Positions 7,626 to 48,123 of a stretch of 64,000 nt of DNA are shown one piece after another. The notes beneath the pieces are model-generated. The model was not told where the DNA came from. It saw only the letters and a list, made by a program, of their open reading frames with translations, and made no database searches. Made by a program: the position numbers and the translations under genes. Numbering within the stretch: position 1 is the first letter of the stretch; every line of letters begins with the position of its first letter. Origin of the DNA: Dehalococcoidia bacterium (lineage in GTDB: Bacteria > Chloroflexota > Dehalococcoidia > Lucifugimonadales > UBA1123); the NCBI GenBank assembly GCA_965116405.1, contig OZ220685.1, positions 2,007,751 through 2,071,750 on the forward strand, given 5' to 3'.

Positions 7626-7670
7626 AATCAGTGCTCCTTCCTTGTTTGACGCTGGGATAGCGATTCCCGC

Positions 7671-8744: not shown

Positions 8745-8848
8745 GGCATTTACCTCGAAGAGCGTTGTACAAAGGGCGGCCCGTCACGGGTGCCTCCAGT
8801 ACAGAGAATCTCGGACATTATACGTCTCGATGTCCCTCGCGACCTTCG

Positions 8849-8877
8849 TTGACGGTCTGTAGGGCCGATGCTACACT
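8849..8877 (+). promoter_or_regulatory. Candidate sigma-70-type promoter for the hydantoinase operon
   Basis: TTGACG (8849-8854), a 17-nt spacer, then TACACT (8872-8877), about 70 nt upstream of the hyuA ATG. Confidence 0.4.
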
Positions 8878-8948
8878 CGCGGCGATTTCGCGCACCCTGG
8901 GAACGGTCCGCTTCTGCCACACCCGCTCCCGGTTAGGAACATAAGCCC

Positions 8949-13910: not shown

Positions 13911-14037
13911 ATACCCATCAACTCACAGTCGGCTCTGATCGATAGTGTTACAATCGGCCCAGGACTCACCTGCCGACCCTGTTCCGATCCGGGACTCAAG
14001 TAACACAGCGGGTAGCACAGACATCGGAGGCAGATCA

Positions 14038-15282
14038 GTGGCGGACAGATCAGCCAATGATACCGATATCGCCGACGAACCTGACGTATACTCCGAAGCT
14101 AGGCTCGTGTGTCGAGACCTGTGGAAGGTGTATGGCGACGGCGCGGAGAACCTGGCCGACTCGATCGACGCCTCCCTGTCACGCGAGGATGTGCTTACCC
14201 AGACCGGTTGCGTGCTCGCCGTTCGGGATGTCTCGTTCGACGTGCGCGAGGGAGAGACCTTCGTCATCATGGGCCTCTCCGGCAGCGGCAAGTCCACGCT
14301 CGTCCGCTGTATATCCCGGCTCATCGAACCGACGCGAGGCCAGGTCCAGATAGACGGCGAGGACCTGCTCGCCATGAACAAGCAGCAGCTTCGGGACATT
14401 CGGCGTCACAAGATGGGCATGGTGTTCCAGCACTTCGGCAACTTTCCCCACAAGCGGGTCTTCGAGAACGTGGTGTACGGCCTACAGATCCAGGGCATCA
14501 ACAAGGCCACGCAGCGCAGCCGCGCGGCCGAGGTCATCGAGCTTGTGGGGCTGTCGGGTTGGGAGGAGCGGTACCCGCACGAACTGAGCGGCGGAATGCA
14601 GCAGCGTGTCGGGCTGGCCCGCGCGCTCGCAGTCGACCCGCAGATACTACTCTTCGACGAGCCGTTCAGCGCTCTCGACCCCCTGATCCGGCGTGAGATG
14701 CAGGACCAGTTGATCGGACTCCAGCAGCTCGTCCAGAAGACGATGGTGTTCATAACCCACGACTTCCTCGAGGCGCTCAAGGTAGGGGAACGGGTGGCGA
14801 TAATGAGGGACGGGGAGTTCGTCCAGGTTGGCACGCCGGAGGAGCTGGTCTCCAATCCGATCAACGACTACGTGCGCGACTTCACGCGCGATGTGCCTCG
14901 CTCCAAGGTGTTAACGGCGCGTTCCGTAATGACCCCGCCCAGAGTCTTCGCAACTCCAGATGAGGGACTGGCCGACCTGTTGAGCAGGCTGTCCGACCAG
15001 GACTGCGAAAGCGCGGTGGTGGTCGGCAGGGAGGAGCGCTTCATAGGGACGGTCCACTCGTCAGATGTTCACGGAGGTGGAGCGGCAAACTCCAGTGTGG
15101 CCTCCGTCATGCGCGACTCCTGTCCCATCGTGGATCCCGGGACACGTCTCGAAGAGCTCATTCCCCTCACAATCTCGGGGGACTCCCCGATCGCCGTTCT
15201 GGACGACGGGCAGTGCATTGGCACGATCAGCCGTGAGGCGGCGGTGGCTGCCCTCATAAGCGATGAGGGTGTGGCGATGTGA
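14038..15282 (+). CDS. proV: Glycine betaine/proline-type ABC transporter ATP-binding protein with a C-terminal CBS pair
   Basis: It has Walker [10 protein letters not shown], the signature [15 protein letters not shown], and Walker [13 protein letters not shown]. The C-terminal CBS-like region is [11 protein letters not shown]... I prefer the GTG at 14038, which has GGAGG 8 nt upstream. The track ORF starts at 13945. Confidence 0.85.
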
Positions 15283-17267
15283 CCATCGCTGAAGCTCTCC
15301 AGACTCGCTTCATCCGGGAACGCCGGTACCAGGGTATCGTGTGGGCCGCGGTGGCGGCTGCCGCGTACATCCTGGCCTATTCACTGGCGACCACCAATGC
15401 GGGCACCGAATTCGGAGACTGGCCGCAGAGCTGGGAACCTCCAATCCAGGAGCCGATCCACGACTTCTTCGAGACTGCCGGCGACGCCTTATCCTGGCTG
15501 TTCAACCCGGTCTCGGACGTCATCGACGCCGGCATCGCAGGCATAGACGGGTTTCTGCTCTGGCTCCCGTGGCCCGTCGTCGTGGCAGGTGTGGCGTTGC
15601 TGGGGCTGAGGCTCGGTGGCAGGTGGCTTGGGCTGTTCTGTGGCGCTGCCGTCCTGTTCATAGGCCTCATCGGGTTCTGGGACTCCGCGATGGTGACTCT
15701 GAGCGTGGTTGGAGTTTCGGTACTCATCAATGTGGGACTGGGCGTACCGATCGGCGTATTCGCGGCCTTCAGCAATCGCTTCGAGTCAATTGTCCGCCCG
15801 ATACTCGATACCATGCAGGTCCTTCCCGCGTTCGTTTACCTCATACCTGCGCTGATCCTGTTCGGAGTGAGCGGCACCCAGGGGGTCTTCCTCACGGTGG
15901 TCTACTCCATCCCGCCCGTCATCAGGCTCACCAACCTCGGAATCCGGCAGGTCCCCCAGGCGGCTATAGAGACGGCCCAGTCGCACGGATCGACGACGTG
16001 GCAGACGCTGTTCCAGGTGCAGCTGCCGCTGGCAAAGAGCACTATCATGCTGGGCATCAACCAGACCATCATGATGGCTGTCTCCATGATCATCGTGACT
16101 GCGCTGGTGGGTGTGCAGGGGCTCGGCCGGGACGTTTGGCTCTCATTGAGGGAGGTGGACGCTGGGAAAGGCCTTGAGAGTGGAATCGCCATCGTCCTCC
16201 TCGCCATCATCCTGGACAGGTTCAGCTATGCCATGGTGAGGTCCGGTCCCAGCTCCGCCGCGGCCATTCCGTCCGCCAGCCCGGGGATCGAGGGCAGGGT
16301 TGGCCAGAGACTTCAGTTCATGGCAGCTCGGTACGCAGTTCCCATTGCTGGCGCGGTTTTGATAGCCGTACTGCTGGTCCTCGGCGCACTGGTTGGGGCG
16401 TTGAGGGACTTCCCGGACGCGCTCACCTTCTCGATGGCGGACCCCGTTAACCGGGTCTTCGACTGGATGGCGGTCAACCTTCACTTCATTACAAGCTGGA
16501 CACGGGACATCCTGTTCCGTGAACTGGGCTACTCGCCCATTCATACGCTGCTCCTCTGGCTGCCCTGGCCGGCGATGATGGTCGTCGCAGCTGTTCTGGC
16601 CTACTTCACCGCGGGTTGGCGAGTGTCGCTTCTCGCTGTGGTGGGACTGGCCTTCGCGGGCATCGGCGGGGTGTGGGACGTTACGATGGACACCCTGAGC
16701 CAGGTGCTTACCGCGGCCGGGTTCACGGTGGTTGTGGGTATCGTGCTGGGAGTTCTCGCTTCTCAGAGCAGGACATTCGAGTCGATTCTGAGGCCGATCC
16801 TGGACACCATGCAGACCATGCCGATCTTCGTATATCTCATCCCGGTCATAATGCTCTGGGGCGTCGGGCCGCTGGTCGGCATCATAGCCACATCGGTGTA
16901 CGCGCTGCCCCCGGTGATCCGTATGACCACCCTGGGGATCAGGCAAGTGCCGGAACAGGTAATCGAGACGGCAACGTCCCACGGCTCGACCGGCCTCCAG
17001 ACTATGCTCCAGGTCAAGATACCTCTGGCCTTCCCGACGATAATGATGGGCGTCAACCAGACCATCATCATGGTTCTGGCCATGGTGATCATTGCCGGAC
17101 TCGTGGGCGGCGGTGGCCTTGGACAGGAGGTCTTCATAAACTCGATCTGGCTCAGGATGGGTCATGGCCTGGTCGCAGGGATGGCAATCGTCTTCATGGC
17201 GATGGTGCTCGACCGCATGACCCAGGGCAAACAGGGCGCTGCGATACCACTTGCAGCAATGAGGTAA
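15279..17267 (+). CDS. proW: Fused tandem ABC permease (two ProW/OpuAB-like transmembrane domains in one polypeptide)
   Basis: 662 aa. Two homologous halves each carry FESI[VL]RPILDTMQ...IPPVIR[LM]T.LGIRQVP...IETA.SHGST...Q[VT][QK][LI]PLA. The GTG start overlaps the proV stop (ATGTGA). Confidence 0.85.
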
Positions 17268-17388
17268 CTGGAATCCGTGACCGGGTTCTCGGCTATGCAC
17301 AAGGAGGGACGCTCCAATGGGAAAGTAGAGGATGGGGCATACCATCAGTACTGTCCAAGTACACTCCGAACCCTGAAAGGAGAGGAAA

Positions 17389-18393
17389 ATGAAATCAGTT
17401 AAGAACAGGTGGATTGGTCTCTCGGTGGCTGTGGCGCTGGCCATGGTCGTTGCGGTGGGAATTGCCTGCAGCGAGACCACAGAAGAGGCTGACGAGTCGG
17501 AGTCCAGGGGCACCCTGGTACTTGTCGACCAGGACTGGAACGGTCAGCTCGTCACGACTGCTGTAATGAAGATCCTGCTGGAACAGGAGATGGACCACAC
17601 TGTCGCGACCATGTTCGCCCCCGCAGACTCGGCGCCCCTCTTCATAGGGCTCGAGACGGGTGTTTTCCACTTCGTGTGCTGCAACTGGCCTTCCTACAGC
17701 GCCGCACTCATCGAGGAGTATGTGGATGCTGAAGGCGATCCCAAGGTGGAGCGCGTGGGGCCGGTTGGCATCACGGGTGAGACGGGCTGGTACGTTCCTT
17801 CCTACGTGGTCAATGGCGACTCCGAACGCGGCATCGACGCCGTCGCGCCAAACCTCAGCACCGTGGGCGACCTGAACCAGTACAAGGACGTCTTCGCCAC
17901 GAGGGATACCGGTAACAAGGGGCGACTCCTGGAGTTCACGGCGGCGTGGGATACGAAGCCCGAGGAGCGGCTTGAAGCTTTCGGCGCCGACTACCAGGTG
18001 GTGTTTGCCGGGTCGGAAGGCGCAGCGCTGGCTGAAGTCGACGCTGCCTTCCAGCGAGGCGATCCCGTGCTCACGTACCTCTGGGAGCCTCACTGGGCGC
18101 ACGCCAAGTACAGCCTGGTGCAGGTGGAAATGCCTGAGTGGACTTCGGACTGCTACCCGGACGGCACGAACTACAACTGCGGCTTCCCAACCGACAGCGT
18201 AGCCAAGCTGGCCTGGCCCGGCCTCAAGGACGAGTTCCCCGAGGCGTACGAGTTCCTGTCCAGGTTCCAGATGACCAACGAGCAGCAGAACGAGATAGTG
18301 CTCAACCTCACCGAGAACGACCTGACCGTGCGCCAGGCCGCTCAGGCGTGGGTCGATGCCAACGAGGCAATCTGGAGGCCCTGGATACCGTAG
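17389..18393 (+). CDS. proX: Glycine betaine-type ABC transporter substrate-binding lipoprotein (OpuAC/ProX family)
   Basis: It has a signal peptide plus lipobox (LAMVVAVGIAC), then LVLVDQDWNGQLVTTAVMKILLEQ. It follows proVW directly. Confidence 0.8.
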   Translation: MKSVKNRWIGLSVAVALAMVVAVGIACSETTEEADESESRGTLVLVDQDWNGQLVTTAVMKILLEQEMDHTVATMFAPADSAPLFIGLETGVFHFVCCNWPSYSAALIEEYVDAEGDPKVERVGPVGITGETGWYVPSYVVNGDSERGIDAVAPNLSTVGDLNQYKDVFATRDTGNKGRLLEFTAAWDTKPEERLEAFGADYQVVFAGSEGAALAEVDAAFQRGDPVLTYLWEPHWAHAKYSLVQVEMPEWTSDCYPDGTNYNCGFPTDSVAKLAWPGLKDEFPEAYEFLSRFQMTNEQQNEIVLNLTENDLTVRQAAQAWVDANEAIWRPWIP

Positions 18394-18424
18394 AGAGAGT
18401 TCCCGGCTGGACCAGTACCGGCGG

Positions 18425-19978
18425 TCACTCCGCCTTGATGAAGTCGGCAGCCCGTTCCGCCATCGCCATGACGGTCAGGTTCAGGTTTGCCCGAACCGTA
18501 TCTGGCATTATCGATGCGTCGACGACTCTCAGGCCGTCGATGCCGTGCACCCTGCCGTACTGGTCCACAACGGCCATCGGATCGTCTGAAGGCCCCATCT
18601 TGCAAGTGCTGGAGACGTGATGCGCGGTGATGACCTCCCGCTTCATCCAGGCGTCGAGGGCATCGTCGTCGGACAGCACCTCGTCTGACGGTCCGATGCG
18701 CTCTTCGACTATCTCTCCGAAGGCATCGTGCCTGAAAAGGTCGGCGCACATCCTGATGCTCTCACGCATTCGGGACCGGTCGAACGGGTCGTCGAGCAGG
18801 TTGAAGTCAAGCTCGGGCGGCTGCCCCGGGTCGCTTGAGCGGAGACGCAGCTCGCCCTGGCTCAGCGCAAGGTACAGGCCCTGGCTCACGCCTACTCCGA
18901 CCGGCTGTGTGTGGTCAACCCGCCGCATTGGGCGCTCCGATGCGTAGTTGCCCATGTAGATCACCATGTCGTTCTCAAATGGCGACCCGGGGGCAGTGAA
19001 GCGCAGTGTCACGGTGCCGTTGCTGATCTGATCGGTGTTCAGCTGGAAGTCCGGTCGCGTGCGCCACGCCATCGGTACGTCGGGATGGTCCCTGAGATTG
19101 CGCCCGACTCCCGGAAGGTCGAGTGTCACGGGGATGGACAGCCTGCGCGACTGCTCCGCCGGGCCGATGCCCGACAGGGCGAGAATGTGCGGCGATCCTA
19201 TTGCTCCCGCGCAGAGTATCACCTCGTCGCCGTAGAACGACTCCTCCTCGTGTCCGTTTCGTACCCGTACGCCGACTGCCTGGCACCCCTCGAAGATTAT
19301 CCCGAGAACGAGACTGTTGGGTCTGACGGTCAGTCCGGGTCGATTTCGGGCAGGGTCGAGATAGCCTATTGCCGTGCTTACTCGAACTCCCTCCGAGATA
19401 TTGAAGGGCAGGGGCCCGACACCTGTGGAGCCGGGTCTGTTGTGGTCGGTGCAGTCCGGGAAGCCCGAGTCCAGGCACGCGCGATAGAACGCGTGCTGCT
19501 GAGGTCCCCACTCGTCGGGCCGGTACCGGCGGCAGCTTATGGGGCCGTCAGCGCCGTGATACTCGTCATGGAAGTCCTGGTCGGACTCCAGCTTCAGCAG
19601 GTAGGGAAAGACCTTTTCGTAGCTCCATTCATGGTTTCCCCACCTGGCCCAGCGGTCGAAGTCATCGGGCATTCCCCGCAGGAACTGCGCCTCGTTCACC
19701 GCGCTGGAGCCCCCGGTGACCCTGCCGCGTGGAATGTCTATGTCGGCCAGGTCTGTCGCTCTGGCGCGAAAGTTCCAGATGTGGCCGCCGTCCCAGATGG
19801 TCGTATCGGTGCCGTAGGGGTACCTGATGTCACCCGGCATCTCATCCCGCGTGGGATAGTCCGCTCCTGCCTCGATGAGCAGGACCGACCTGTTGGGGTC
19901 TTCCGTCAGCCGGGCAGCCAGGATCGAGCCTGCCGAGCCCGCGCCTACGATGATGTGGTCGTACGTCGGTCCGTCCAC
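18425..19978 (-). CDS. GMC-family FAD oxidoreductase (choline-dehydrogenase-like), paralogue 2
   Basis: 517 aa. Motifs are YDHIIVGAGSAGSILAARL, GRVTGGSSAVN, and AHHVSSTCKMG...GLRVVDASIMP. It is clearly alignable along its whole length with 917-2482. Confidence 0.9.
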   Translation of the reverse strand: MDGPTYDHIIVGAGSAGSILAARLTEDPNRSVLLIEAGADYPTRDEMPGDIRYPYGTDTTIWDGGHIWNFRARATDLADIDIPRGRVTGGSSAVNEAQFLRGMPDDFDRWARWGNHEWSYEKVFPYLLKLESDQDFHDEYHGADGPISCRRYRPDEWGPQQHAFYRACLDSGFPDCTDHNRPGSTGVGPLPFNISEGVRVSTAIGYLDPARNRPGLTVRPNSLVLGIIFEGCQAVGVRVRNGHEEESFYGDEVILCAGAIGSPHILALSGIGPAEQSRRLSIPVTLDLPGVGRNLRDHPDVPMAWRTRPDFQLNTDQISNGTVTLRFTAPGSPFENDMVIYMGNYASERPMRRVDHTQPVGVGVSQGLYLALSQGELRLRSSDPGQPPELDFNLLDDPFDRSRMRESIRMCADLFRHDAFGEIVEERIGPSDEVLSDDDALDAWMKREVITAHHVSSTCKMGPSDDPMAVVDQYGRVHGIDGLRVVDASIMPDTVRANLNLTVMAMAERAADFIKAE

Positions 19979-26214: not shown

Positions 26215-26637
26215 CTACTCTTGCGCCTGCTCGCAGTTTACCTGCCAGTTGATGCCGAACCTGTCGGTGCAGGCGCCGAAGTAGGAGCCCCAGAACATCT
26301 TCTGCATCTCCATGGAAACGGAGCCGCCGTCTGAGAGCTTGCCGAACAGGTCGTCGGACTCTTCACGCGTGGTCGTACTGATGCTGATCGAGAAGTTGTT
26401 GCCCTGCTTGTGGTTCCCACCGAACGTCGAGGGCACGTCGCTGCCCATGAGGATGCTCGACCCGATTGGCAACGATACGTGCATGACGTTGTCGAGCTCA
26501 TCCTCGGGCATGGGAAAGTCGGACGGGCCGTTGCGGAACGTCTCCATGACCATGAAGTCGCCGCCGAAGACGGAGCGGTAGTACTCGAATGCCTCCCGGC
26601 AGTTGCCGTCGAAGTTTAGGTAAGTGCTGAGTGTCAT
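26215..26637 (-). CDS. PhnB/YjdN-like VOC-superfamily protein
   Basis: The likely start is MTLSTYLNFDGNCREAFEYYRSVFGG (ATG 26635-26637), the typical N-terminus of this family. It ends ...FGINWQV. Confidence 0.75.
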   Translation of the reverse strand: MTLSTYLNFDGNCREAFEYYRSVFGGDFMVMETFRNGPSDFPMPEDELDNVMHVSLPIGSSILMGSDVPSTFGGNHKQGNNFSISISTTTREESDDLFGKLSDGGSVSMEMQKMFWGSYFGACTDRFGINWQVNCEQAQE

Positions 26638-26845
26638 CTTTCTCCCTGTGCTGTGTGATTTTGCTGATAACGACATTTGGGGAAGGCATGGTGTGTCCCC
26701 AGGGTCAATCGTGGTCCCGCTTCTGACGGGCAGGCTATGGGTTTATGGTTTTCAAAAGCAAAAAATCTCTGTGTGGAGTTCCGAGAGTGGTACCTGCCCC
26801 TGTGCTATAGTCAGGCCAGTTCGAGCAGTTCCAGGAGGTGCGGTC

Positions 26846-28120
26846 ATGGGAGACAGCCGGCTTGCAATTGATGGTGGGACACCGGTCGTGTCGGAGCCTC
26901 TGCCGACGGGCGTGTCGGGGCCGAGCGTCATCGGCGACGAGGAGATAGCGGCGGTATCCGATGTCCTCAGAAGCCAGGAGCTGTTTCGCTATCCCAAAGA
27001 GCAGAGCGAGGCGGCGAAGTTCGAGGAAGAGGTGGCCGGGTACCTGGGCGTCGAGTACGCGCTGATGGTGAACTCCGGCACCAGCGCGCTGATAACCGCG
27101 CTGACCGGTGTGGGAGTCGGCCCCGGTGACGAGGTCATTGTTCCGGGGTACACGTACATCGCCACGGCCGCTGCTGTTATGGCCACGGGCGCGGTGCCCG
27201 TGATTGCGGAGGTCGACGAGTCCCTGGGACTCGACCCAGAAGACCTGGAGCGGAAGATCACGCCGTACACAAAGGCAGTCGTACTCGTTCACATGCGGGG
27301 AGTCCCTGCGCGAATTGACGCCATCCTGGCAGTCGCGCGCAAGCACGGCCTGAAGGTTGTTGAAGACTGCTGCCAGTGCGTCGGCGGGGCCTACATGGGG
27401 CGCAGCGTGGGTACATACGGCGATGCCGGTGCGTGGAGCCTGAACTACTACAAGACGATCTCCTCGGGCGAGGGCGGGCTCGTGTTCACTAACGACCGCG
27501 ACATCTACGAGCGGGCCTGCTTTGCCTCTGACCCCGGTCTGCCCATGTGGACTGCCAACGAAGACGACGTAGAGTGGCAGAACGAGCCGTTCCCCCGGCA
27601 GACGTATCGTCCAAGCGAGGTGCTGGCGGCCATCGCGCGGGTGCAGCTATCCAAGCTGGACGACATCCTGGAGCATCAGCGGTCGCTCAAGAGGGCCTTC
27701 CTGGGGGGCCTGGAAGAGGCGAGAGGGTACCGCCTTCAGCACGTGGACGATCCTGCTGGCGACACGGGTGTGTCGGCCTCAGTCATTGTGCACGACAAGG
27801 AGCTGGCGGTCGGATACTCGCACGCGCTGAACGCCGAGGGCGTGAATGCGGCCACCGTTTACAACGACGGCTTCCCTGACAGGCACATCTACACCTACTG
27901 GGACTCGATACTTGAGAAGCGGTCACACCACCCATCCGGGTATCCCTGGGGCGATCCAAACTACAAGGGCAACGTTGAGTACTCGAAGGACATGTGTCCT
28001 CAGACGCTGGATATCTTGGGTCGCAGCATTCGGTTCGACTTCAACATGAACATGACGGTCGAACACGCTCGGCTGATGGCCGAGGCGCTGAACAAGGTGG
28101 ACGCGGCAGTGGGGGCCTAG
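26846..28120 (+). CDS. DegT/DnrJ/EryC1/StrS-family PLP-dependent aminotransferase
   Basis: The likely start is MGDSRLAIDGGTPVV (ATG 26846) with AGGAGG 8 nt upstream. Motifs are VNSGTSALITAL, VPGYTYIATA, and SLNYYKTISSGEGGLVFTND (PLP lysine). The N-terminal 74 codons of the track ORF are probably not translated. Confidence 0.85.
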   Translation: MGDSRLAIDGGTPVVSEPLPTGVSGPSVIGDEEIAAVSDVLRSQELFRYPKEQSEAAKFEEEVAGYLGVEYALMVNSGTSALITALTGVGVGPGDEVIVPGYTYIATAAAVMATGAVPVIAEVDESLGLDPEDLERKITPYTKAVVLVHMRGVPARIDAILAVARKHGLKVVEDCCQCVGGAYMGRSVGTYGDAGAWSLNYYKTISSGEGGLVFTNDRDIYERACFASDPGLPMWTANEDDVEWQNEPFPRQTYRPSEVLAAIARVQLSKLDDILEHQRSLKRAFLGGLEEARGYRLQHVDDPAGDTGVSASVIVHDKELAVGYSHALNAEGVNAATVYNDGFPDRHIYTYWDSILEKRSHHPSGYPWGDPNYKGNVEYSKDMCPQTLDILGRSIRFDFNMNMTVEHARLMAEALNKVDAAVGA

Positions 28121-28137
28121 TCCAAGACTTTAGGAGT

Positions 28138-28166
28138 GTAGGGGCGACCCTAGTGGTCGCCCCTAC
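28138..28166. terminator. Perfect 12-bp-stem hairpin between convergent genes (REP-like, probable bidirectional terminator)
   Basis: GTAGGGGCGACC-CTAGT-GGTCGCCCCTAC is followed by GTGTTTT on the + strand. It lies 18 nt after the aminotransferase stop and 14 nt after the stop of the minus-strand gene. The arm sequence resembles the MITE core terminus GTAGGGGCAACC. Confidence 0.6.
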
Positions 28167-28179
28167 GTGTTTTAGAGCT

Positions 28180-29817
28180 TTACCTGTACTGGTCGATTCC
28201 GACGGTGGTGATGCCTTCGCCGGTCGGCATGACGAGGGTCTTCGCGCGGTCTGCTCCGACTACGACGATGTGCCAGCGGTCGACGCTCTCGAGCAGCGGT
28301 ACGGTGATGTCCAGACGCTCTTGCTCGGTCAGGCCCTCCAGCCAGCTCCACTGCTTGCCGACGCGGGCGTCGTCTATGGGCATGTACTGGATAAGTTTGC
28401 CCAGGCTGTGGTTGGCGTGGTAGTGGATGAACTGCTTGGCTTCCTGCTTGGAGAAACCCTGTCCGCCCACTGGTCGCGCGACGTCCGGAGGCATGAAGAT
28501 CAGCCGCTCGGAGCCATTCGCTGAGCCGAGTCCCATTGTGCCGAACGTGCTGCCGTAGGCAAGGTTCTTCAACAGAGCCTCGGCATTCGTGTTGCCCTGG
28601 TCCTGGACGTCCAACTCGCCATCGGTGATGAAAACGCTGACCGTGCTCTCATCTGCGCGGTATCCCTGGTCGACGTGGAGCGGCTGCCAGGGGCTCATCT
28701 CCTCGTTCTCGGCGATGCAGTGAACGAACTTGCGAGTTGTGCCGATGGTGTCCATGTCCATCTGACCGGGGTACCAGTAGCCCAGGTTGCGCAGGCATAG
28801 CGAGAAGGCGCGGCCGATGGTGATATTCACCTCGTTGTCGCGGCCGGGTCCGAGTCCTGAGCGTGGGTTGATTCCCAGCTCCTTGGCGATCGGGCCGTTG
28901 ACCACCAGCATAGGCGCGTGCGGGCTGGTGGACATCAGCAGCGACTTTCCTCCGTGCGAGCCGACCTCGGAGAGCGCCTTGACTGCCGCTATGATGACTG
29001 GCATCTGCTCAGGCTTCGCGCCTGCCATCGCGGCGTTGATTGCGATCTTCTCGACTGTGGCGAGTCCAAAGCCGGGCGGCATGTCACAGACCAGCTCGTC
29101 CCTGTCGAGACCGGTGCCGTCTACGAGTTCGGCGACGGCTTCGGGCGTAGGAGGATGCAGAATGAGCGAGTCTCCCCAGTCGCGCAGCAGCCACTGCTCA
29201 TTCATCCTGAGTATTGCGTCCCACCTGTCCTCGCCCTCGAATCGCTCGATGGCCGCGGTGGTGTCGCGCTCCCTGCGTGTATGACCCTGGTCGACCGTGA
29301 GTACCTCGACAATGTCATCAAACACGGCCTCGGTCTGGCTGATACACAGGTCCGGGGCGAGGTTCCTGTAGATCCGGGGGACGATAACGAACTGTAGGTC
29401 CGGCATCGCGAATGCACGCGAGCTTGCGATGGCGTCCTCTTCAAAGCGTCCGGACACGATCGGGATGGCGGGCTTGCCCGTCTTCTCGATCTCAATCATG
29501 TCGTGGACCATCCACGACGCGCACGTCCCTCAATCGGCTGTGGCGCCGATGACGACGTCACACTCCTTTGCTGCCTGCTGGACTATCGGCGGCGGAGTCG
29601 GGTAGTTGCCGCCGGTGTAGAAGTTGACGGTTACGTTGTCGAACCGCTCCTTGATCATCTCTCCGGTGCGGTTCAGGGCGAGGTCGCCGCCGTGTGTGCC
29701 GCTCCAGATAAGACCGACGATCTTGTTGTCGAGCGTGTCCGGTCTGGGACTGATCGGAAGCGAGTTCATCAGCCCGCGCTGCTGACCGATGGGGTTTAGA
29801 ACTTCAAGAAGATGCAT
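28180..29817 (-). CDS. Candidate selenoprotein (545 aa if TGA 29530-29532 is read as Sec): an N-terminal GrdB-like U-G-T-C module plus a ~440-aa domain of unknown family
   Basis: Track ORFs 29530-29817 and 28180-29511 are in the same frame. Only TGA plus 6 sense codons separate them. The junction reads ...KECDVVIGATAD-U-GTCASWMVHDMIEIEKTGKPAIPIV... A strong SD (GGGAGG) precedes only the upstream ATG (29815-29817). A hairpin lies downstream of the TGA, and selB is at 46261-48123. Confidence 0.6.
29500..29532 (-). promoter_or_regulatory. UGA codon plus candidate bacterial SECIS hairpin
   Basis: The mRNA reads UGA GGGACGUGCGC GUCGUGG-AUGGU-CCACGAC. An 11-nt spacer is followed by a 7-bp perfect stem (8 bp if the A-U pair closes, 29518-29500). 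The apical loop contains GGU and starts about 19 nt after the UGA. Confidence 0.5.
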
Positions 29818-29968
29818 TAAGGACCTCCCTACTGTCTGTTTGCTGGTCGTCAGCAGCGATTATATAGCAAGCGCCGTCAGCTGTTCTGTAAAGGCCGAGA
29901 GTTCGGTGCCGTGTATAATTGGCTGTAGCTGGTTGGGCTGATAGCCCATGTAACCTTGGAGAATTCTG

Positions 29969-30202
29969 ATGAAGACGCTGACCGTTGATGACACTCTCTA
30001 CTCTGCTATGGAAGCGGAATCAGCCAAGTGTGGCAGGCCGGTACACGACCTGGTTAACGAGGCTATCGAGACATGGTTGGCCGAGTCGGAGATGGATCTG
30101 GCGGAACGTGCCGAGATTGAGGCATCCCGTGTAGAAGCAGCCGAAGAGGGCGGAGTCGAGGTTGACCAGTTCTTTGACGATCTCCTCCGAGATGATGCCT
30201 GA
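29969..30202 (+). CDS. Ribbon-helix-helix (CopG-like) antitoxin
   Basis: 77 aa. It starts MKTLTVDDTLYSAMEAESAKCGRPVHDLVNEAIETWL and has an acidic tail. It lies directly upstream (6 nt) of a RelE/ParE-like reading frame. Confidence 0.6.
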   Translation: MKTLTVDDTLYSAMEAESAKCGRPVHDLVNEAIETWLAESEMDLAERAEIEASRVEAAEEGGVEVDQFFDDLLRDDA

Positions 30203-30208
30203 CCCATA

Positions 30209-30474
30209 ATGTCACATCGTGTGGAGTTGTCACCGGCGGCCCAGCGACAACTTAGACGAATCTCGCGGGGAGACCTTCCCGGAATACGGGATGCCTTAAG
30301 GAGACTGGCAGATGATCCTCGCCGTCTGGTAGTTCCAAGCTAAGAGGATTCACGGCAGTGTGGCGAATTCGTATAGGGCAGTACCGCGCGATCTACGAGA
30401 TACACGACCGCGAGGGCAGTGTAATGGTGCTTCGTATTGCCCGTCGCGATGAGCGCACGTACAGGCGGCTCTGA
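30209..30474 (+). pseudogene. RelE/ParE-family toxin disrupted by a frameshift
   Basis: Frame A (ATG 30209) gives MSHRVELSPAAQRQLRRISRGDLPGIRDALRRLADDPR.. and stops at TAA 30341. A shifted frame from about 30337 gives KLRGFTAVWRIRIGQYRAIYEIHDREGSVMVLRIARRDERTYRRL*, the RelE/ParE core. A 1-nt indel near 30310-30337 separates the two frames. Confidence 0.65.
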
Positions 30475-30507
30475 CCATCCAAGCCTGTGAGGGCCTTGCG
30501 TCGCTGC

Positions 30508-31347
30508 TTAAATCCCCCGCCAGTAGCGCTTGCCTTCGAGCCTGACGAAGCGGCCGATGTGGCGGTCGGGATGGAAGTGACCGGCGGCCACGACCATCTC
30601 CTCACGCTCGGCGCGGTCCATGAAGGCCTTTCGGGAGCGGCGAGTGTCGTCCGGGCTGGTGTCCACGAAGGCGCACCAGTCGGGTTCGTAGATCTGTACC
30701 GGGTTGTGGATCAGGTCGCCGATGATGGCGGCCTTCTCCCCGTTTGAGCTAATGAGTATCACCTGGTGACCCGGGGTGTGCCCCGGCGTCTCCAGGGTGG
30801 TTACCTCGTCGGTCACGTTGTGGCCGTCGTCGATGAACTCGATCAGCCCAAGCTCGTCCAGCGGAATGACGTTCTGGGAAATGTGGGGAGCAGTCGGCAG
30901 CACGTCGGCCTGCATGAAGTGCTCCCAGTCCTTGCGGGGACCGAGGTACCGGGCCTTTGGGAAGTACGGCCTGGCCGCGTCGCCGGAGCTGTCGACGTTC
31001 CAGCCGACGTGGTCGGGATGCAAATGGGTATGAATGACGATGTCGATCTCTTCGGCCTTGGCGCCCGCGTCGCTGAGCGCGCCAAGCAGGTTACCGGTGC
31101 GGTTCTCAAGGTGCGCGTGAGGGCCGGGACCCATGCCGGTGTCGACCAGTATGGTCTGGCCTCCCGACCTGACGAAGAAGCTGCCGTAGTAGAGCTGGAG
31201 CATTCCGTTCTCGAGCACCTCGTCTTCGTACGGCTCCCACGCCTCTCTAGGGTGGTCCGTGATGAATACCGTGGGGTCGCGTGCGGGCGGTATCATGTCC
31301 AGCACGGCGACGATTTCGACGTTTCCAACTGTGATCATGTCAGTCAT
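30508..31347 (-). CDS. MBL-fold metallo-hydrolase (lactonase-like)
   Basis: 279 aa. It has the HTHLHPDHVGW metal motif, and later TPGHTPGH and H..D ligands. Confidence 0.85.
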   Translation of the reverse strand: MTDMITVGNVEIVAVLDMIPPARDPTVFITDHPREAWEPYEDEVLENGMLQLYYGSFFVRSGGQTILVDTGMGPGPHAHLENRTGNLLGALSDAGAKAEEIDIVIHTHLHPDHVGWNVDSSGDAARPYFPKARYLGPRKDWEHFMQADVLPTAPHISQNVIPLDELGLIEFIDDGHNVTDEVTTLETPGHTPGHQVILISSNGEKAAIIGDLIHNPVQIYEPDWCAFVDTSPDDTRRSRKAFMDRAEREEMVVAAGHFHPDRHIGRFVRLEGKRYWRGI

Positions 31348-45747: not shown

Positions 45748-46251
45748 CTACTTGATCTCCATCTGGTCGCCGTCGAAGGTGATGGACCTGGAGCGGTGAC
45801 TCAGGACGGCCTTCCTGAAGTGACGGAGTTCGACTCGTAGTTCGTCCAGCCTGCGGGCGGCCTCTGTCTGGAACCTGCTCGCGGCTGACTGCCGGGCCAT
45901 ACGCCCCCACAGACCGCGTTGCGGCATCTGCTTGAGCAGGTCGCCGAACTCCTCCATGAACGGCCCAAACGCCCTGATCGAGAGATCGGGCATGGGCGTG
46001 TCATCTGCCGGGTCGGCGAAGTACATGCTGAACGCGATCTCGGACTCGTTCAGGAACGTGATGTCCAGAAGCAGGGACGGCTGGGGCTGGCCTTCGAACA
46101 TCTCGCCGCCGTCCTCGACTCCCCTGGCTGCATCCCGCACAGAGGCCTGTATAACCCTGAGCGTCCTGGAAACGTAGGAGACAGGGAGCGCGCGGGACTC
46201 GACAACAAGGATCAGGCAGTATTCGGAGGTCGCGATGCTTTCGGATGCCAT
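45748..46251 (-). CDS. Hypothetical protein directly downstream of selB
   Basis: 167-aa ORF starting 9 nt after the selB stop on the same strand. I recognise no motif. Confidence 0.45.
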   Translation of the reverse strand: MASESIATSEYCLILVVESRALPVSYVSRTLRVIQASVRDAARGVEDGGEMFEGQPQPSLLLDITFLNESEIAFSMYFADPADDTPMPDLSIRAFGPFMEEFGDLLKQMPQRGLWGRMARQSAASRFQTEAARRLDELRVELRHFRKAVLSHRSRSITFDGDQMEIK

Positions 46252-46260
46252 GGGAGGCCC

Positions 46261-48123
46261 TTACCTGAGTACGCGTACGTCGCCGACTCGGCGCGTGATT
46301 CGCACGTGGTCGAGGTGGTCCATCAGCGCGAGAGCGTACTTGCGGCTGGTGCCGAACAGGTCCCTTACGTCGGCCACGGTGATCTCGCCACGCTCGGACA
46401 GGTGTCCGGTTATCCCATCCACCATCTGCTGGTAGGCCGATGATGCGAAGACGACGGACTCGCTGACCTTAACGACCTGCCCCTCCGCGTCCAGCAGGTT
46501 CACGACTTCGGGGTCGATTGGGAAGTCTGTGGGGGGAGAGAACGGGTCCGAACTGAGCTGGCGCAGGTACTCGTCGACGGTCTCCTTCTGAGAGTCGCCT
46601 AGACTGGGGGAGTGATTGGGCAGCCTGACGGTGGACCCCTGCTCGACGGTGATGCCACCCCTGTTAAGAAGGTTAAGAACGTCGTTGAAGACCTGTGGAG
46701 TGAGTCGCAGCCTCGACCTCAGCTCCTCCTTTGGCGCTGCGAGGCGCAGCGGGAACTGGCGGTGGTAGTCGCCCAGGGCGGCGCGCGTTCGGTCCTCCAG
46801 AGCGCGCCATCCGCCTGCGGTGTAGAACCTGGTGGCCTGTGTGATCCCGCCGCTTCCGAGGATGACCACCTGGTTGTCCTCGATCATCCCCTGCAGTTCG
46901 GTTCGGGCAGTCTCGCCATTGAGATTGGCACGATTGACCACGGCTCGGAACTCTGCGGGCTCGATGCCTTCGATGGTCTTTAGCAGCACGTCCCGGTCGG
47001 AGCCGCGCTCCATGATCTCAAGTCGTTCGATTGTCGGGATGTGACGACGCCTGGGACGTGGCGCGTGGGTGTCTACTATGTTGCCGCCCCCGAGGGTCGT
47101 CATGTTGGACCTAATGACGAAGTAGTCGCCCTTGGCGATTGCCACGGGGGAGTCCAACTTAAGCTGCGCCCAGGTCGTGTCGCCCGGATGGGCGCGGTCG
47201 CCTTCGAACAGTCTCAGTCGCGCGACAGACTCGCTGGAGCCCGTGTGCACGGTCACGTACATGTTGTGACGTAGCTGATTTGGCGCGTCTTCCAGGACGC
47301 GCAGGTGAACGTCGAACGCTGTAGAGGGCCTGAGCCAGCCAGGACTGGTAAGCACCTCTCCGCGATACACGTCGTCCTGTGACACGCCGATGAGGTTAGC
47401 GGCCACGCGTGTACCGGGTTCGGCGCGGTCAACCTTGTGGCGATGTGTCTGGAGTCCGCGTACGCGGGTGCGTTGCCCGGCGACGGTCAGCTCGACGTCC
47501 TGGCCGGTCTCCAGGTGTCCGTCGATCAGGGTGCCGGTTACCACTGTGCCGAAGCCCGTCAGGGTGAAGGCGCGGTCTATCGGCAGCCTGGGACGGGCGA
47601 GGTCTCGCTTGGCTGGAATGTCCTCGACCATCGTCGAGATAGCGGCAATCAGTTCAGGCAATCCCTCGCCGGTGTGCGCTGACACTGGCATGATCTGCGC
47701 GCCTTCGAGTGCAGTACCTTCCAGAGTGCCTTCAACGTCTGCCATGACGAGTTCTATCCACTCGTCGTCAACGAGGTCTCTCTTGGTAAGGGCAACCAGT
47801 CCTCGAGGTATCTGGAGCAGGTCGAGGATGGCGAGGTGTTCGCGAGTCTGGGGCATGACCGACTCGTCGGCGGCCACTACCAGCAGAGCGATGTCGATTC
47901 CGCCGACACCCGCGAGCATGTTGTTCACGAAGCGCTCGTGGCCGGGGACATCGACGATGCTGACCTCGTTGCCTGACGGCAGCTGGAGCCACGCAAAGCC
48001 GAGGTCAATCGTCAGACCCCGCTCCTTCTCCTCAGCGAGACGGTCTGGGTCGATACCCGTGAGGGCCTCTACGAGAGTCGATTTGCCGTGATCGACGTGT
48101 CCTGCTGTACCAACGACAAACAT
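46261..48123 (-). CDS. selB: Selenocysteine-specific translation elongation factor SelB
   Basis: 620 aa. The GTPase N-terminus is VVGTAGHVDHGKSTLVEALTG...DVPGHERF...TKRD, followed by EF-Tu-like domains II and III. A long C-terminal winged-helix extension ends ...VRDLFGTSRKYALALMDHLDHVRITRRVGDVRVLR, typical of bacterial SelB. Confidence 0.9.
   Translation of the reverse strand: MFVVGTAGHVDHGKSTLVEALTGIDPDRLAEEKERGLTIDLGFAWLQLPSGNEVSIVDVPGHERFVNNMLAGVGGIDIALLVVAADESVMPQTREHLAILDLLQIPRGLVALTKRDLVDDEWIELVMADVEGTLEGTALEGAQIMPVSAHTGEGLPELIAAISTMVEDIPAKRDLARPRLPIDRAFTLTGFGTVVTGTLIDGHLETGQDVELTVAGQRTRVRGLQTHRHKVDRAEPGTRVAANLIGVSQDDVYRGEVLTSPGWLRPSTAFDVHLRVLEDAPNQLRHNMYVTVHTGSSESVARLRLFEGDRAHPGDTTWAQLKLDSPVAIAKGDYFVIRSNMTTLGGGNIVDTHAPRPRRRHIPTIERLEIMERGSDRDVLLKTIEGIEPAEFRAVVNRANLNGETARTELQGMIEDNQVVILGSGGITQATRFYTAGGWRALEDRTRAALGDYHRQFPLRLAAPKEELRSRLRLTPQVFNDVLNLLNRGGITVEQGSTVRLPNHSPSLGDSQKETVDEYLRQLSSDPFSPPTDFPIDPEVVNLLDAEGQVVKVSESVVFASSAYQQMVDGITGHLSERGEITVADVRDLFGTSRKYALALMDHLDHVRITRRVGDVRVLR

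What the first reader, a model, noticed from the sequence alone, without database searches (positions are those of the whole stretch)
28180..29817. An in-frame UGA fuses two ORFs into a 545-aa candidate selenoprotein with an A-D-U-G-T-C motif and an unassignable C-terminal domain
Seen directly:
- ORFs 29530-29817 (95 aa) and 28180-29511 (443 aa) share strand and frame. Only TGA (29530-29532) plus six sense codons separate them.
- Read through, the junction is ...AAKECDVVIGATAD-U-GTCASWMVHDMIEIEKTGKPAIPIVSGRF..., a U-x-x-C redox-type motif.
- Only the upstream piece has a good SD (GGGAGG 7 nt before ATG 29815-29817). The ATG the ORF caller chose for the 443-aa piece has no SD and sits in the loop of a hairpin.
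- selB is encoded in the same window (46261-48123).

From memory, to be verified: the junction resembles the Sec region of glycine/sarcosine/betaine reductase component B (…TST-U-GTC-TRCGATMVKEIE…) and the 'UGSC' (seleno)protein family first noted in marine metagenomes.

Inference: I cannot place the remaining ~440 residues (…ATVEKIAINAAMAGAKPEQMPVIIAAVKAL…STSPHAPMLVVNGPIAKELGINPRSGLGPGRDNEVNITIGRAF…) in any family. This may therefore be an uncharacterised Sec-dependent oxidoreductase that standard gene callers split into two hypothetical proteins.
Basis: partly seen in the sequence, partly recalled or inferred. Interest (0 to 1): 0.85.

Follow-up and report, generated by a model that had tools for sequence, protein, structure and literature searches.

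The report
Split selenoprotein gene, UGSC family fusion
The two adjacent "hypothetical" ORFs are one 545-residue selenoprotein gene of the known but uncharacterised UGSC family, fused to a large, widespread domain that no database describes; it probably forms a thioredoxin-driven reductase whose substrate is unknown.

Summary
Window 29817..28180 (- strand) is one reading frame of 95 codons, TGA, 449 codons and TAA.

**Evidence that the TGA encodes selenocysteine**
- The Pfam UGSC domain (PF24696) spans the TGA.
- All 82 close Dehalococcoidia/SAR202 relatives carry TGA at this codon. So do 70 of 80 diverse metagenomic homologues; 8 carry Cys.
- A hairpin 11 nt downstream is kept by silent-site conservation and compensatory changes, as expected for a bacterial SECIS.
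- selB lies in the window.

**What the protein looks like**
- The N-terminal domain models as a flavodoxin-like alpha/beta fold. U-G-T-C sits at a strand-to-helix junction, weakly resembling the Sec loop of GrdB/PrdB.
- The C-terminal 365 residues give a confident model but no Pfam, NCBIfam or PDB match.
- This C-terminal domain also occurs alone next to a separate UGSC gene, as tandem copies, or fused to redoxin or ferredoxin-thioredoxin-reductase modules.
- Thioredoxin reductase genes are adjacent in several lineages, for example a trxB-trxA-domain-UGSC operon in Arthrobacter.

**Novelty**
The family has been in the literature since 2007. A "UGSC/Unknown_1" fusion was reported in 2008. This is therefore a new member of a known kind, with function still unknown.

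The parts
28180..29817 (-). Complete selenoprotein coding sequence: 545 residues with Sec at 96, including the TAA stop
   Evidence: One frame with a single internal TGA. It is colinear and in frame with 82 genomic loci and 80 metagenomic loci.
29824..29829 (-). Shine-Dalgarno-like GGGAGG, 6 nt upstream of the ATG at 29817
   Evidence: Read directly from the sequence.
29296..29805 (-). UGSC domain (residues 5-174), flavodoxin-like alpha/beta fold
   Evidence: Pfam PF24696 scores E 4.5e-27 and 95.7 bits against a cut-off of 25. The AlphaFold model of the Cys homologue P0124 has pLDDT 92.8. Foldseek finds only flavodoxin/WrbA-type matches.
29530..29532 (-). UGA codon 96, read as selenocysteine
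   Evidence: TGA in 82/82 close loci and 70/80 distant loci; Cys codon in 8. Cys in the fused homologues P0124, P0126, P0137, P0139 and P0144.
29521..29523 (-). Cys99, the partner of Sec96 in the U-G-T-C motif
   Evidence: Conserved in 68 of 70 Sec-form loci.
29497..29521 (-). SECIS-type hairpin. Core stem 29518-29511 pairs with 29507-29500, and the loop UGG is at 29510-29508. It starts 11 nt after the UGA.
   Evidence: Predicted fold. Synonymous codon entropy is zero or near zero (0-0.1 bit) at codons 100-106, against a gene mean of 1.21 bits, in 81 sequences. The stem is kept in 57/74 diverse sequences, with compensatory variants.
28183..29277 (-). C-terminal domain (residues 181-545) with no catalogued family or fold
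   Evidence: AlphaFold pLDDT 94.1, pTM 0.93. The best PDB match has TM 0.23-0.27. No Pfam or NCBIfam hit in 10 members at E up to 10. No PDB sequence relative.
28141..28163 (-). G+C-rich hairpin (GGGGCGACC-ACTA-GGGTCGCCCC) 17 nt after the stop, between convergent genes. Possibly a terminator, but it has no U tract.
   Evidence: Read from the sequence. The consensus scan did not call it a terminator.
46261..48123 (-). selB, the Sec-specific elongation factor needed to decode the UGA
   Evidence: Pfam hits: GTP_EFTU, Beta-barrel_SelB, SelB-wing_2 and SelB-wing_3.

Best explanation
Window 29817..28180 (- strand) is a single gene for a 545-residue selenoprotein.

**Decoding.** SelB, encoded 17 kb away in the same window, recognises a SECIS hairpin that begins 11 nt after UGA-96. 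It delivers Sec-tRNA there, so translation continues.

**Architecture.** The product has two domains.
- A flavodoxin-like UGSC domain carries Sec96-Gly-Thr-Cys99 at the end of a beta-strand and the start of a helix.
- A 365-residue domain of uncatalogued fold carries near-invariant Asp216, Thr254, Asn261, Asn331, Arg336, Glu370 and Trp377.

**Inferred mechanism (not shown).** The C-terminal domain binds a small polar substrate, probably one bearing a carboxylate. The selenol of Sec96 attacks or reduces it. Cys99 resolves the intermediate to a selenenyl-sulfide. That bond is re-reduced by thioredoxin/thioredoxin reductase, or in some relatives by a fused ferredoxin-thioredoxin-reductase module. 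This would be a thioredoxin-system-dependent reductase built like glycine or D-proline reductase protein B, but with a different substrate domain.

The selenoprotein identity is shown. The reductase chemistry and the substrate are inference.
For: **Sec decoding**
- Pfam UGSC spans the UGA.
- 82/82 close loci and 70/80 distant loci have TGA at this codon. 8 have Cys and 1 has Ser.
- Fused Cys homologues at 27-41% identity align D-C-G-S-C with D-U-G-T-C.
- Hairpin codons 100-106 show no or almost no synonymous variation (0-0.1 bit) in 81 sequences, against 1.21 bits gene-wide. The lowest-scoring windows of the whole gene lie at codons 96-111.
- The hairpin is kept in register in 57/74 diverse sequences with compensatory changes. 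Pairing is 0.75 against 0.23-0.49 for slid controls.
- selB is in the window.
- TGA serves as an ordinary stop in 6 of 18 genes checked in the window (17 Pfam-supported genes plus this CDS), so the genetic code is standard.

**The two domains work together**
- They are fused here.
- They are separate adjacent genes in L084, L091, Natrinema and Arthrobacter.

**Redox role**
- Cys99 is kept in 68/70 Sec forms.
- The C-domain is alternatively fused to an AhpC/TSA-redoxin module (P0214). In P0267 it is followed by a ferredoxin-thioredoxin reductase beta module.
- Arthrobacter has a trxB-trxA-Cdomain-UGSC operon.
- Variovorax has a TrxR-like gene, TctC and the fused gene in a row.
- TrxR-like genes lie beside the gene in L084, L085, L087-90, L108, L133, L136 and one SAR202 subclade.

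**GrdB/PrdB-like Sec loop**
- hhalign gives E 4.2e-4 with U-x-x-C and the following E..G-[IV]-P-T-V strand in register.
- P0124 gives a weak TIGR04483 PrdB hit at the same loop.
Against: - No experimental evidence of selenium incorporation exists.
- selA, selD and tRNA-Sec are not in the window, and the rest of the genome could not be searched.
- In this window, and in most close relatives, no thioredoxin or thioredoxin reductase gene is adjacent. TrxR-like genes occur within the flanks in only 10 of 72 close loci and 3 of 28 long metagenomic loci.
- Neighbours vary widely, so context does not fix a substrate.
- The GrdB/PrdB similarity is local and below a confident threshold: probability 34%, and no Pfam GRDB hit.
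- The NCBIfam UGSC equivalog cut-off is not reached (89.8 against 125 bits).
- The commonly conserved Cys of the C-domain motif AMAG-C is Ala in this protein.
Confidence: 0.8

Rival explanations
1. It is a genuine selenoprotein, but not a net reductase. Sec96 would act as a catalytic nucleophile or acid-base group in a non-redox reaction on an organic acid or CoA ester: an isomerase, racemase, lyase or transferase. Alternatively, the UxxC pair would only regulate the C-domain by redox state.
For: - Many homologues sit in organic-acid or CoA-ester clusters: PrpD, PrpF, MaoC, aconitase, isocitrate lyase/PEP mutase, family III CoA-transferase, HMG-CoA lyase and TctC.
- Forms with Met, Ile, Thr or Ser at the Sec position exist, with UxxC lost. 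Examples are Sporomusa, Vibrio, P0172, P0179 and P0195. So the C-domain can function without the redox pair.
- TrxR adjacency is not universal.
Against: - Sec/Cys-x-x-Cys is kept in the great majority of homologues (68/70 Sec forms keep Cys99).
- Operonic trxB-trxA, TrxR-like neighbours in at least six lineages, and fusions to redoxin and FTR-beta modules all point to stoichiometric electron supply.
Confidence: 0.15
2. The UGA is a real stop. Two separate proteins are made: a 95-residue N-terminal fragment, and a 443-residue protein started at the internal ATG.
For: - Gene callers and public records annotate it this way. Both halves are 'hypothetical protein' or unnamed.
- The UGSC domain and the C-domain can be separate genes in other lineages.
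Against: - The break falls in the middle of the UGSC domain rather than between domains.
- The stop is always TGA, at the same codon, in 152 loci.
- Cys replaces it in homologues.
- The internal ATG has no Shine-Dalgarno sequence and lies inside a conserved hairpin.
- The frame is preserved in all loci.
Confidence: 0.03
3. It is a pseudogene or a sequencing/assembly error that created a stop.
For: None beyond the presence of an in-frame stop.
Against: The feature is identical in 82 independent genome assemblies and 70 metagenomic contigs. The flanking protein sequence is under strong purifying selection: VIGATAD*GTCASWMVHD is invariant in 81 of 82 loci.
Confidence: 0.01

Closest known systems
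UGSC-containing (seleno)protein family (Pfam PF24696, NCBIfam NF041046; Zhang & Gladyshev 2007-2008, PMC1976440, PMC2398784)
   Same: - The N-terminal domain matches PF24696 above its threshold.
- It has the U-G-x-C motif, and Cys homologues exist.
- Sec forms greatly outnumber Cys forms. The 2008 GOS paper found 255 Sec against 21 Cys; here the count is 70 against 8.
- Function is unknown in both cases.
- A 'UGSC/Unknown_1' fusion was already reported in 2008.
   Different: - The typical family members named by NCBI are small stand-alone proteins. This protein scores 89.8 bits, under the 125-bit equivalog cut-off, and carries an extra 365-residue domain.
- The motif here is U-G-T-C rather than U-G-S-C.
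- The 2008 paper guessed a thioredoxin-like fold. The model here is flavodoxin-like.
- Whether 'Unknown_1' is this same C-domain could not be checked, because Figure S1A is held only as an image.
Selenoprotein B of glycine/sarcosine/betaine reductase and D-proline reductase (GrdB/PrdB; Pfam PF07355, TIGR04483)
   Same: - The local layout is shared: hydrophobic strand, U-x-x-C, helix, then E-x-x-G-[IV]-[PS]-T-V strand. This aligns in register by hhalign (E 4.2e-4).
- From established knowledge of those enzymes, Sec acts as a nucleophile with a resolving Cys, and electrons come from the thioredoxin system. That parallels the trxB/trxA linkage seen here.
   Different: - No PF07355 hit at E up to 1.
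- hhalign probability is only 34% over 57 columns.
- No sequence match (Pfam/NCBIfam) between the C-domain and the pyruvoyl partner subunits GrdE/PrdA was found; the window and related loci were not searched for separate grdE/prdA genes.
- There is no grdA, grdC or grdD context.
- The hosts are mostly aerobic or marine Chloroflexota, proteobacteria, actinobacteria and haloarchaea, not amino-acid-fermenting anaerobes.
Thioredoxin-dependent Sec/Cys reductases in general (for example MsrA, ArsC and peroxiredoxins with Sec variants)
   Same: A Sec/Cys pair is recycled by a thioredoxin system, and Sec and Cys forms are interchangeable across lineages.
   Different: The fold and the substrate domain are unrelated. 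No sequence or structural similarity was found.

Membership tests
UGSC family (PF24696 / NF041046) | Match to the Pfam family model above its gathering score | tested here: met
   PF24696 scores 95.7 bits against 25, covering residues 5-174 and profile positions 1-171 of 172.
UGSC family (PF24696 / NF041046) | NCBIfam equivalog cut-off (125 bits) | tested here: not met
   NF041046 scores 89.8 bits at E 1.7e-25. The fused Cys homologues P0124 and P0139 also fall below the cut-off.
UGSC family (PF24696 / NF041046) | U/C-G-S/T-C motif at the conserved position | tested here: met
   D-U-G-T-C here; D-C-G-S-C or D-U-G-S-C in homologues.
Bacterial selenoprotein gene (SelB/SECIS-dependent UGA decoding) | In-frame UGA conserved among orthologues and replaced by Cys in some homologues | tested here: met
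   82/82 and 70/80 loci have TGA; 8 have Cys.
Bacterial selenoprotein gene (SelB/SECIS-dependent UGA decoding) | Stem-loop shortly downstream of the UGA, with G/U in the apical loop, under RNA-level selection | tested here: met
   An 8-bp stem starts 11 nt after the UGA, with loop UGG or GUG. Silent sites are conserved and compensatory variants occur. No Rfam model matched. bSECISearch was not available.
Bacterial selenoprotein gene (SelB/SECIS-dependent UGA decoding) | selB in the genome | tested here: met
   Window 46261-48123 carries the SelB-specific domains.
Bacterial selenoprotein gene (SelB/SECIS-dependent UGA decoding) | selA, selD and tRNA-Sec in the genome | not testable with these tools
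   None is in the 64-kb window.
Bacterial selenoprotein gene (SelB/SECIS-dependent UGA decoding) | Selenium found in the protein | not testable with these tools
   This needs 75Se labelling or mass spectrometry.
GrdB/PrdB selenoprotein B (PF07355) | Match to the family model | tested here: not met
   No PF07355 hit at E up to 1. Only P0124 gives a TIGR04483 hit, at E 0.16.
GrdB/PrdB selenoprotein B (PF07355) | Profile-profile similarity with the Sec residue in register | tested here: inconclusive
   hhalign of A1 against A4 gives probability 34% and E 4.2e-4 over 57 columns, with UxxC aligned.
GrdB/PrdB selenoprotein B (PF07355) | Pyruvoyl partner subunit (GrdE/PrdA) and GrdA/C/D context | not tested
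   The C-domain has no Pfam hit of any kind, and none of the window ORFs scanned matched these families. The window and related loci were not searched specifically for grdE, prdA or grdACD.
Thioredoxin-fold proteins (2008 suggestion for UGSC) | Thioredoxin-like fold of the Sec domain | tested here: not met
   The model is a beta-alpha-beta sandwich. The domain-sized structural matches are to flavodoxin and WrbA (TM relative to target 0.42-0.53), and no thioredoxins appear among the top 50.
UGSC/Unknown_1 fusion (PMC2398784, Fig. S1A) | C-terminal domain identical to 'Unknown_1' | not testable with these tools
   The figure is held only as an image, and the UGSC part of Dataset S1 was cut when stored.

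The most novel reading that the evidence does not exclude
The C-terminal domain is a new enzyme fold. Together with the Sec-bearing UGSC module and the thioredoxin system, or a fused ferredoxin-thioredoxin-reductase module, it would form a previously unrecognised class of reductases. These would resemble glycine or proline reductase mechanistically: Sec attack, resolution to a selenenyl-sulfide, then recycling by thioredoxin. They would act on an unidentified small organic acid or an N- or S-substituted carboxylate. The class would be widespread in SAR202 and other marine and soil bacteria and, as Cys forms, in haloarchaea.
Probability: 0.35. Interest if true: 0.7.

Novelty: new member of a known kind. 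Interest (0 to 1): 0.45.

Why it matters
- UGSC-containing proteins were among the most abundant selenoprotein families in ocean metagenomes (PMC2398784), yet their function is still unknown.
- The fused form is mis-annotated everywhere as two hypothetical proteins.
- Correct gene models, the pairing with a large uncatalogued domain, and the thioredoxin linkage turn "unknown function" into a testable proposal. The uncatalogued domain family has 3,965 cluster representatives at E <= 1e-3.
- Cultured carriers are available for experiments: Arthrobacter sp. ERGS1:01, Variovorax, Natrinema, and an IncP plasmid of Acidovorax sp. T1 that carries a Sec form.
- The result also bears on selenium demand in SAR202, a dominant deep-ocean lineage.

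Tried and rejected
- **Rfam.** Neither the gathering scan of the whole window nor the permissive scan of 27900-30600 matched an RNA family at the hairpin. A curated match for this bacterial SECIS was not expected, so this says little.
- **PDB sequence search.** A profile of the fused family gave only noise. A profile of GOS PrdB/GrdB-like sequences found no match among solved structures, so no structural test of the GrdB link was possible.
- **Foldseek on the C-domain.** The best hits are class I fumarate hydratase, cyanuric acid hydrolase/barbiturase and CyuA, at TM 0.11-0.27 with rmsd about 10-18 A. I treat these as no match, not as a lead.
- I therefore modelled a Cys homologue (P0124) and the window's C-domain separately.
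- **Checking 'Unknown_1' from the 2008 paper.** The figure is an image and the dataset was truncated.
- **Context statistics.** My first impression that family III CoA-transferase and TrxR-like genes always accompany the gene was wrong. They are recurrent but present in a minority of loci. Gamma-glutamyltranspeptidase (20/82) and metallo-beta-lactamase (16/82) neighbours in close relatives reflect shared synteny, not function.
- **Other Sec genes in the window.** A scan for same-frame ORF pairs joined by TGA gave only chance pairs typical of a 61% G+C genome.
- **Pyruvoyl proenzyme idea.** I considered that the C-domain might be a GrdE/PrdA-like pyruvoyl proenzyme. I set this aside because there is no Pfam/NCBIfam match to any family and no invariant Ser or Cys.
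Full report
**1. The observation**

On the minus strand, the ATG at 29817 is preceded by GGGAGG and a 6-nt spacer. It opens a frame of 95 codons that meets TGA at 29532-29530. Six codons follow (G-T-C-A-S-W), then the ATG at 29511 chosen by the ORF caller. The same frame runs on to TAA at 28182-28180. The junction reads VVIGATAD-U-GTCASWMVHDMIEIEK. The internal ATG sits at the stem/loop boundary of the hairpin GUCGUGGA-UGG-UCCACGAC. selB at 46261-48123 has the SelB-specific beta-barrel and winged-helix domains.

**2. Is the UGA read as selenocysteine?**

With Cys placed at position 96, Pfam UGSC (PF24696) matches residues 5-174 at E 4.5e-27. It covers profile positions 1-171 of 172, so the stop lies in the middle of one domain.

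A protein search returned more than a thousand relatives. The best 120, at 69-89% identity, are all ~440-residue fragments that begin just after the stop. In their contigs a 95-residue UGSC fragment lies immediately upstream.

A genome scan brought in 80 loci from Dehalococcoidia/SAR202 metagenome-assembled genomes at 75-97% identity. Together with two loci fetched earlier, all 82 align to the joined protein as one uninterrupted in-frame match. Each has exactly one internal stop, always TGA, always at codon 96. The flank VIGATAD*GTCASWMVHD is invariant in 81 of them.

A metagenome scan with a family alignment gave 80 further loci at 28-74% identity. Of these, 70 have TGA at the aligned codon, 8 have Cys, 1 has Ser and 1 was not aligned.

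An exhaustive search of 1.84 billion cluster representatives found 3,965 relatives. They include unsplit proteins of 540-580 residues with D-C-G-S/A-C aligned to D-U-G-T-C (P0124, P0126, P0137, P0139, P0144 and others). A few have lost the cysteines.

TGA is an ordinary stop for 6 of 18 genes checked in the window (17 Pfam-supported genes plus this CDS), so the genetic code is standard.

**3. The SECIS element**

An 8-bp stem with a 3-nt loop starts 11 nt after the UGA (window 29518-29500). Across 81 distinct close relatives the mean synonymous codon entropy is 1.21 bits. Codons 100-106 (GCG TCG TGG ATG GTC CAC GAC) show zero or near zero (at most 0.1 bit). The least variable six-codon windows of the whole gene cluster at codons 96-111.

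Among 74 distinct, more distant Sec forms, including stand-alone UGSC genes, the stem is kept with at least 7 of 8 pairs in 57. Variants change both arms together:
- GUCAUGGA/UCCAUGAC
- GUCCUGGA/UCCGGGAC
- GUCGUGCA/UGCACGAC
- AUCGUGCA/UGCACGAU

Pairing is 0.75, against 0.23-0.49 when the 3' arm is slid. Part of this conservation reflects the conserved peptide S-W-x-V-H-D. The silent-site result in close relatives cannot be explained that way.

No Rfam family matched. tRNA-Sec, selA and selD are not in the window, and the rest of the genome could not be examined.

**4. What the protein is**

*N-terminal domain.* It is a member of the UGSC family by Pfam, although below NCBIfam's equivalog cut-off (89.8 against 125 bits). 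An AlphaFold model of the closest fused Cys homologue, P0124 (574 residues, 136-sequence alignment), is confident: pLDDT 92.8 and pTM 0.93. The N-domain is a repeated beta-alpha unit. The Sec-equivalent Cys lies between strand 100-106 and helix 109-124. Foldseek against the PDB gives weak matches only; the domain-sized ones are flavodoxin-like, such as WrbA and flavodoxin, with TM relative to the target of 0.42-0.53. This does not fit the thioredoxin-like fold guessed in 2008.

*Similarity to GrdB/PrdB.* I aligned nine GOS GrdB/PrdB-like sequences taken from the 2008 supplement. The two that were scanned are confirmed as Pfam GRDB. hhalign against the fused family gives E 4.2e-4 at probability 34%. 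U-x-x-C aligns with U-x-x-C, and the following helix and E..G-[IV]-P-T-V strand are in register. P0124 also gives a sub-threshold PrdB hit at this loop.

*C-terminal domain.* A model of window residues 181-545 is confident: pLDDT 94.1 and pTM 0.93. It has no convincing structural neighbour in the PDB: the best hit has TM 0.23-0.27 and rmsd 17.6 A. A profile search of PDB sequences found nothing. There is no Pfam or NCBIfam match for it or for nine stand-alone homologues at E up to 10. It is a large uncatalogued family. Near-invariant residues are Asp216, Thr254, Asn261, Asn331, Arg336, Glu370 and Trp377. The frequent Cys in the motif AMAG-C is Ala in this protein.

**5. How it probably works**

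Three lines of evidence tie the two domains together and to electron supply.

*(a) Domain architecture.*
- The C-domain occurs fused to UGSC, as here.
- It occurs alone, next to a separate UGSC gene, often itself a split Sec gene. Examples are L084, L091, Natrinema zhouii and Arthrobacter sp. ERGS1:01.
- It occurs as tandem copies (P0173, P0201, P0248, P0269).
- It occurs behind a ResA/AhpC-type redoxin domain instead of UGSC (P0214).
- It occurs as Sec-UGSC + C-domain + ferredoxin-thioredoxin-reductase beta-like domain (P0267/L086).

*(b) The redox pair.* Cys99 is kept in 68 of 70 Sec forms.

*(c) Neighbouring genes.*
- Arthrobacter has trxB-trxA-Cdomain-UGSC as overlapping, co-directional genes.
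- Variovorax has a TrxR-like gene, TctC and the fused gene in a row.
- A ~300-residue TrxR-like flavoprotein lies next to the gene in L084, L085 (with thioredoxin), L087-90, L108, L133, L136 and one SAR202 subclade.

The linkage is recurrent but not universal: 10 of 72 close loci and 3 of 28 long metagenomic loci. It is absent from this window. Other recurrent neighbours point to small organic acids or CoA esters but differ between lineages. They include TctC-type binding proteins, family III CoA-transferases, PrpD/PrpF/aconitase, isocitrate lyase/PEP mutase, HMG-CoA lyase and phosphosulfolactate synthase.

My best reading is a thioredoxin-system-dependent reductase. The C-domain binds the substrate, and the Sec96/Cys99 pair carries out and resolves the reduction, by analogy with glycine and D-proline reductase protein B. 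The selenoprotein identity is shown. The chemistry is inferred.

Forms with Met at the Sec site (Sporomusa, Vibrio) show that the C-domain can also work without the redox pair. This keeps a non-redox role as a serious rival.

**6. Comparison with what is known, and novelty**

UGSC-containing protein was listed as a selenoprotein of unknown function in 2007 (PMC1976440). [quoted passage not shown] The same paper noted a "UGSC/Unknown_1" fusion to a conserved domain that is also found alone in a few aquatic organisms (PMC2398784). Reviews from 2022 and 2026 still list the family without a function. The fusion described there is very probably the one found here, but the figure is held only as an image.

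Public records call both halves of this gene hypothetical or leave them unnamed. On an Acidovorax IncP plasmid, the PLSDB gene table lists only the 96-residue N-terminal fragment as a gene.

The finding is therefore a correct re-annotation and a new member of a known, uncharacterised selenoprotein family, not a new kind of system. What this analysis adds:
- the predominance of Sec in the fused form;
- the SECIS evidence;
- the flavodoxin-like fold with a GrdB/PrdB-like Sec loop;
- the absence of any catalogued relative for the C-domain;
- the thioredoxin linkage;
- a list of cultured organisms in which the function could be tested.

**7. Verdict**

- Observation: confirmed.
- Interpretation: supported.
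- Confidence that this is a genuine Sec-decoded single gene: about 0.95.
- Confidence in the reductase mechanism: about 0.45-0.5.
- Interest: moderate, 0.45.

Noticed in passing
window 46261-48123 (-): selB is present, but no selA, selD or tRNA-Sec lies within the 64-kb window. The 167-residue ORF just downstream (45748-46251) has no Pfam match.
   Followed up: partly
window 28141-28163: A 9-bp G+C-rich hairpin sits between the convergent selenoprotein gene and the DegT-type aminotransferase gene (26624-28120, +). It has no U tract and was not called by the terminator scan.
   Followed up: partly
L086 1894-3858 (protein P0267): A three-domain Sec protein: UGSC with an in-frame TGA, the C-domain, and a C-terminal domain matching 'FtrB family double-selenoprotein' / ferredoxin-thioredoxin reductase beta. 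Whether it holds further Sec codons was not examined.
   Followed up: partly
proteins P0173, P0201, P0248, P0269 (710-741 aa): These proteins consist of two tandem copies of the uncatalogued C-domain, with no UGSC or other redox domain.
   Followed up: no
L172 (Acidovorax sp. T1 plasmid p2-T1, NZ_CP021650.1) 7995-9527: A conjugative IncP plasmid of a cultured bacterium carries a Sec (TGA) fused form. The PLSDB gene table lists only its first 96 codons, as a hypothetical protein. It lies next to IS1071 and IS91 transposases, an isocitrate lyase/PEP mutase gene and a TctC gene.
   Followed up: partly
L175 (Sporomusa termitida pSPTER) and L177 (Vibrio europaeus pVEu): Fused homologues with Met at the Sec position and no U/CxxC motif. 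Both lie beside aconitase X and DUF126 genes; in Vibrio an enolase gene follows directly. This may be a non-redox branch of the family.
   Followed up: partly
L017 9292-9672: A second, partial copy of the last 127 codons of the gene (85% identity) lies about 2 kb downstream of the full gene in one Dehalococcoidia genome.
   Followed up: no
L174 4656-5444 and L173 5497-5964: Phosphosulfolactate synthase-family genes lie close to the UGSC/C-domain pair in two unrelated hosts, Arthrobacter and Natrinema. This hints at a sulfonate-related substrate.
   Followed up: no
window 13945-19978: A glycine-betaine-type ABC transporter (ATPase with CBS domains, permease, OpuAC binding protein) is followed by a GMC (choline-dehydrogenase-like) oxidoreductase, about 10 kb from the selenoprotein gene.
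   Followed up: no
window 6528-8783 (-): Two long ORFs (357 and 365 residues) share a frame and are separated by a TGA and 15 codons. No Cys lies near the junction. They look like two ordinary adjacent genes, but this was not examined.
   Followed up: no
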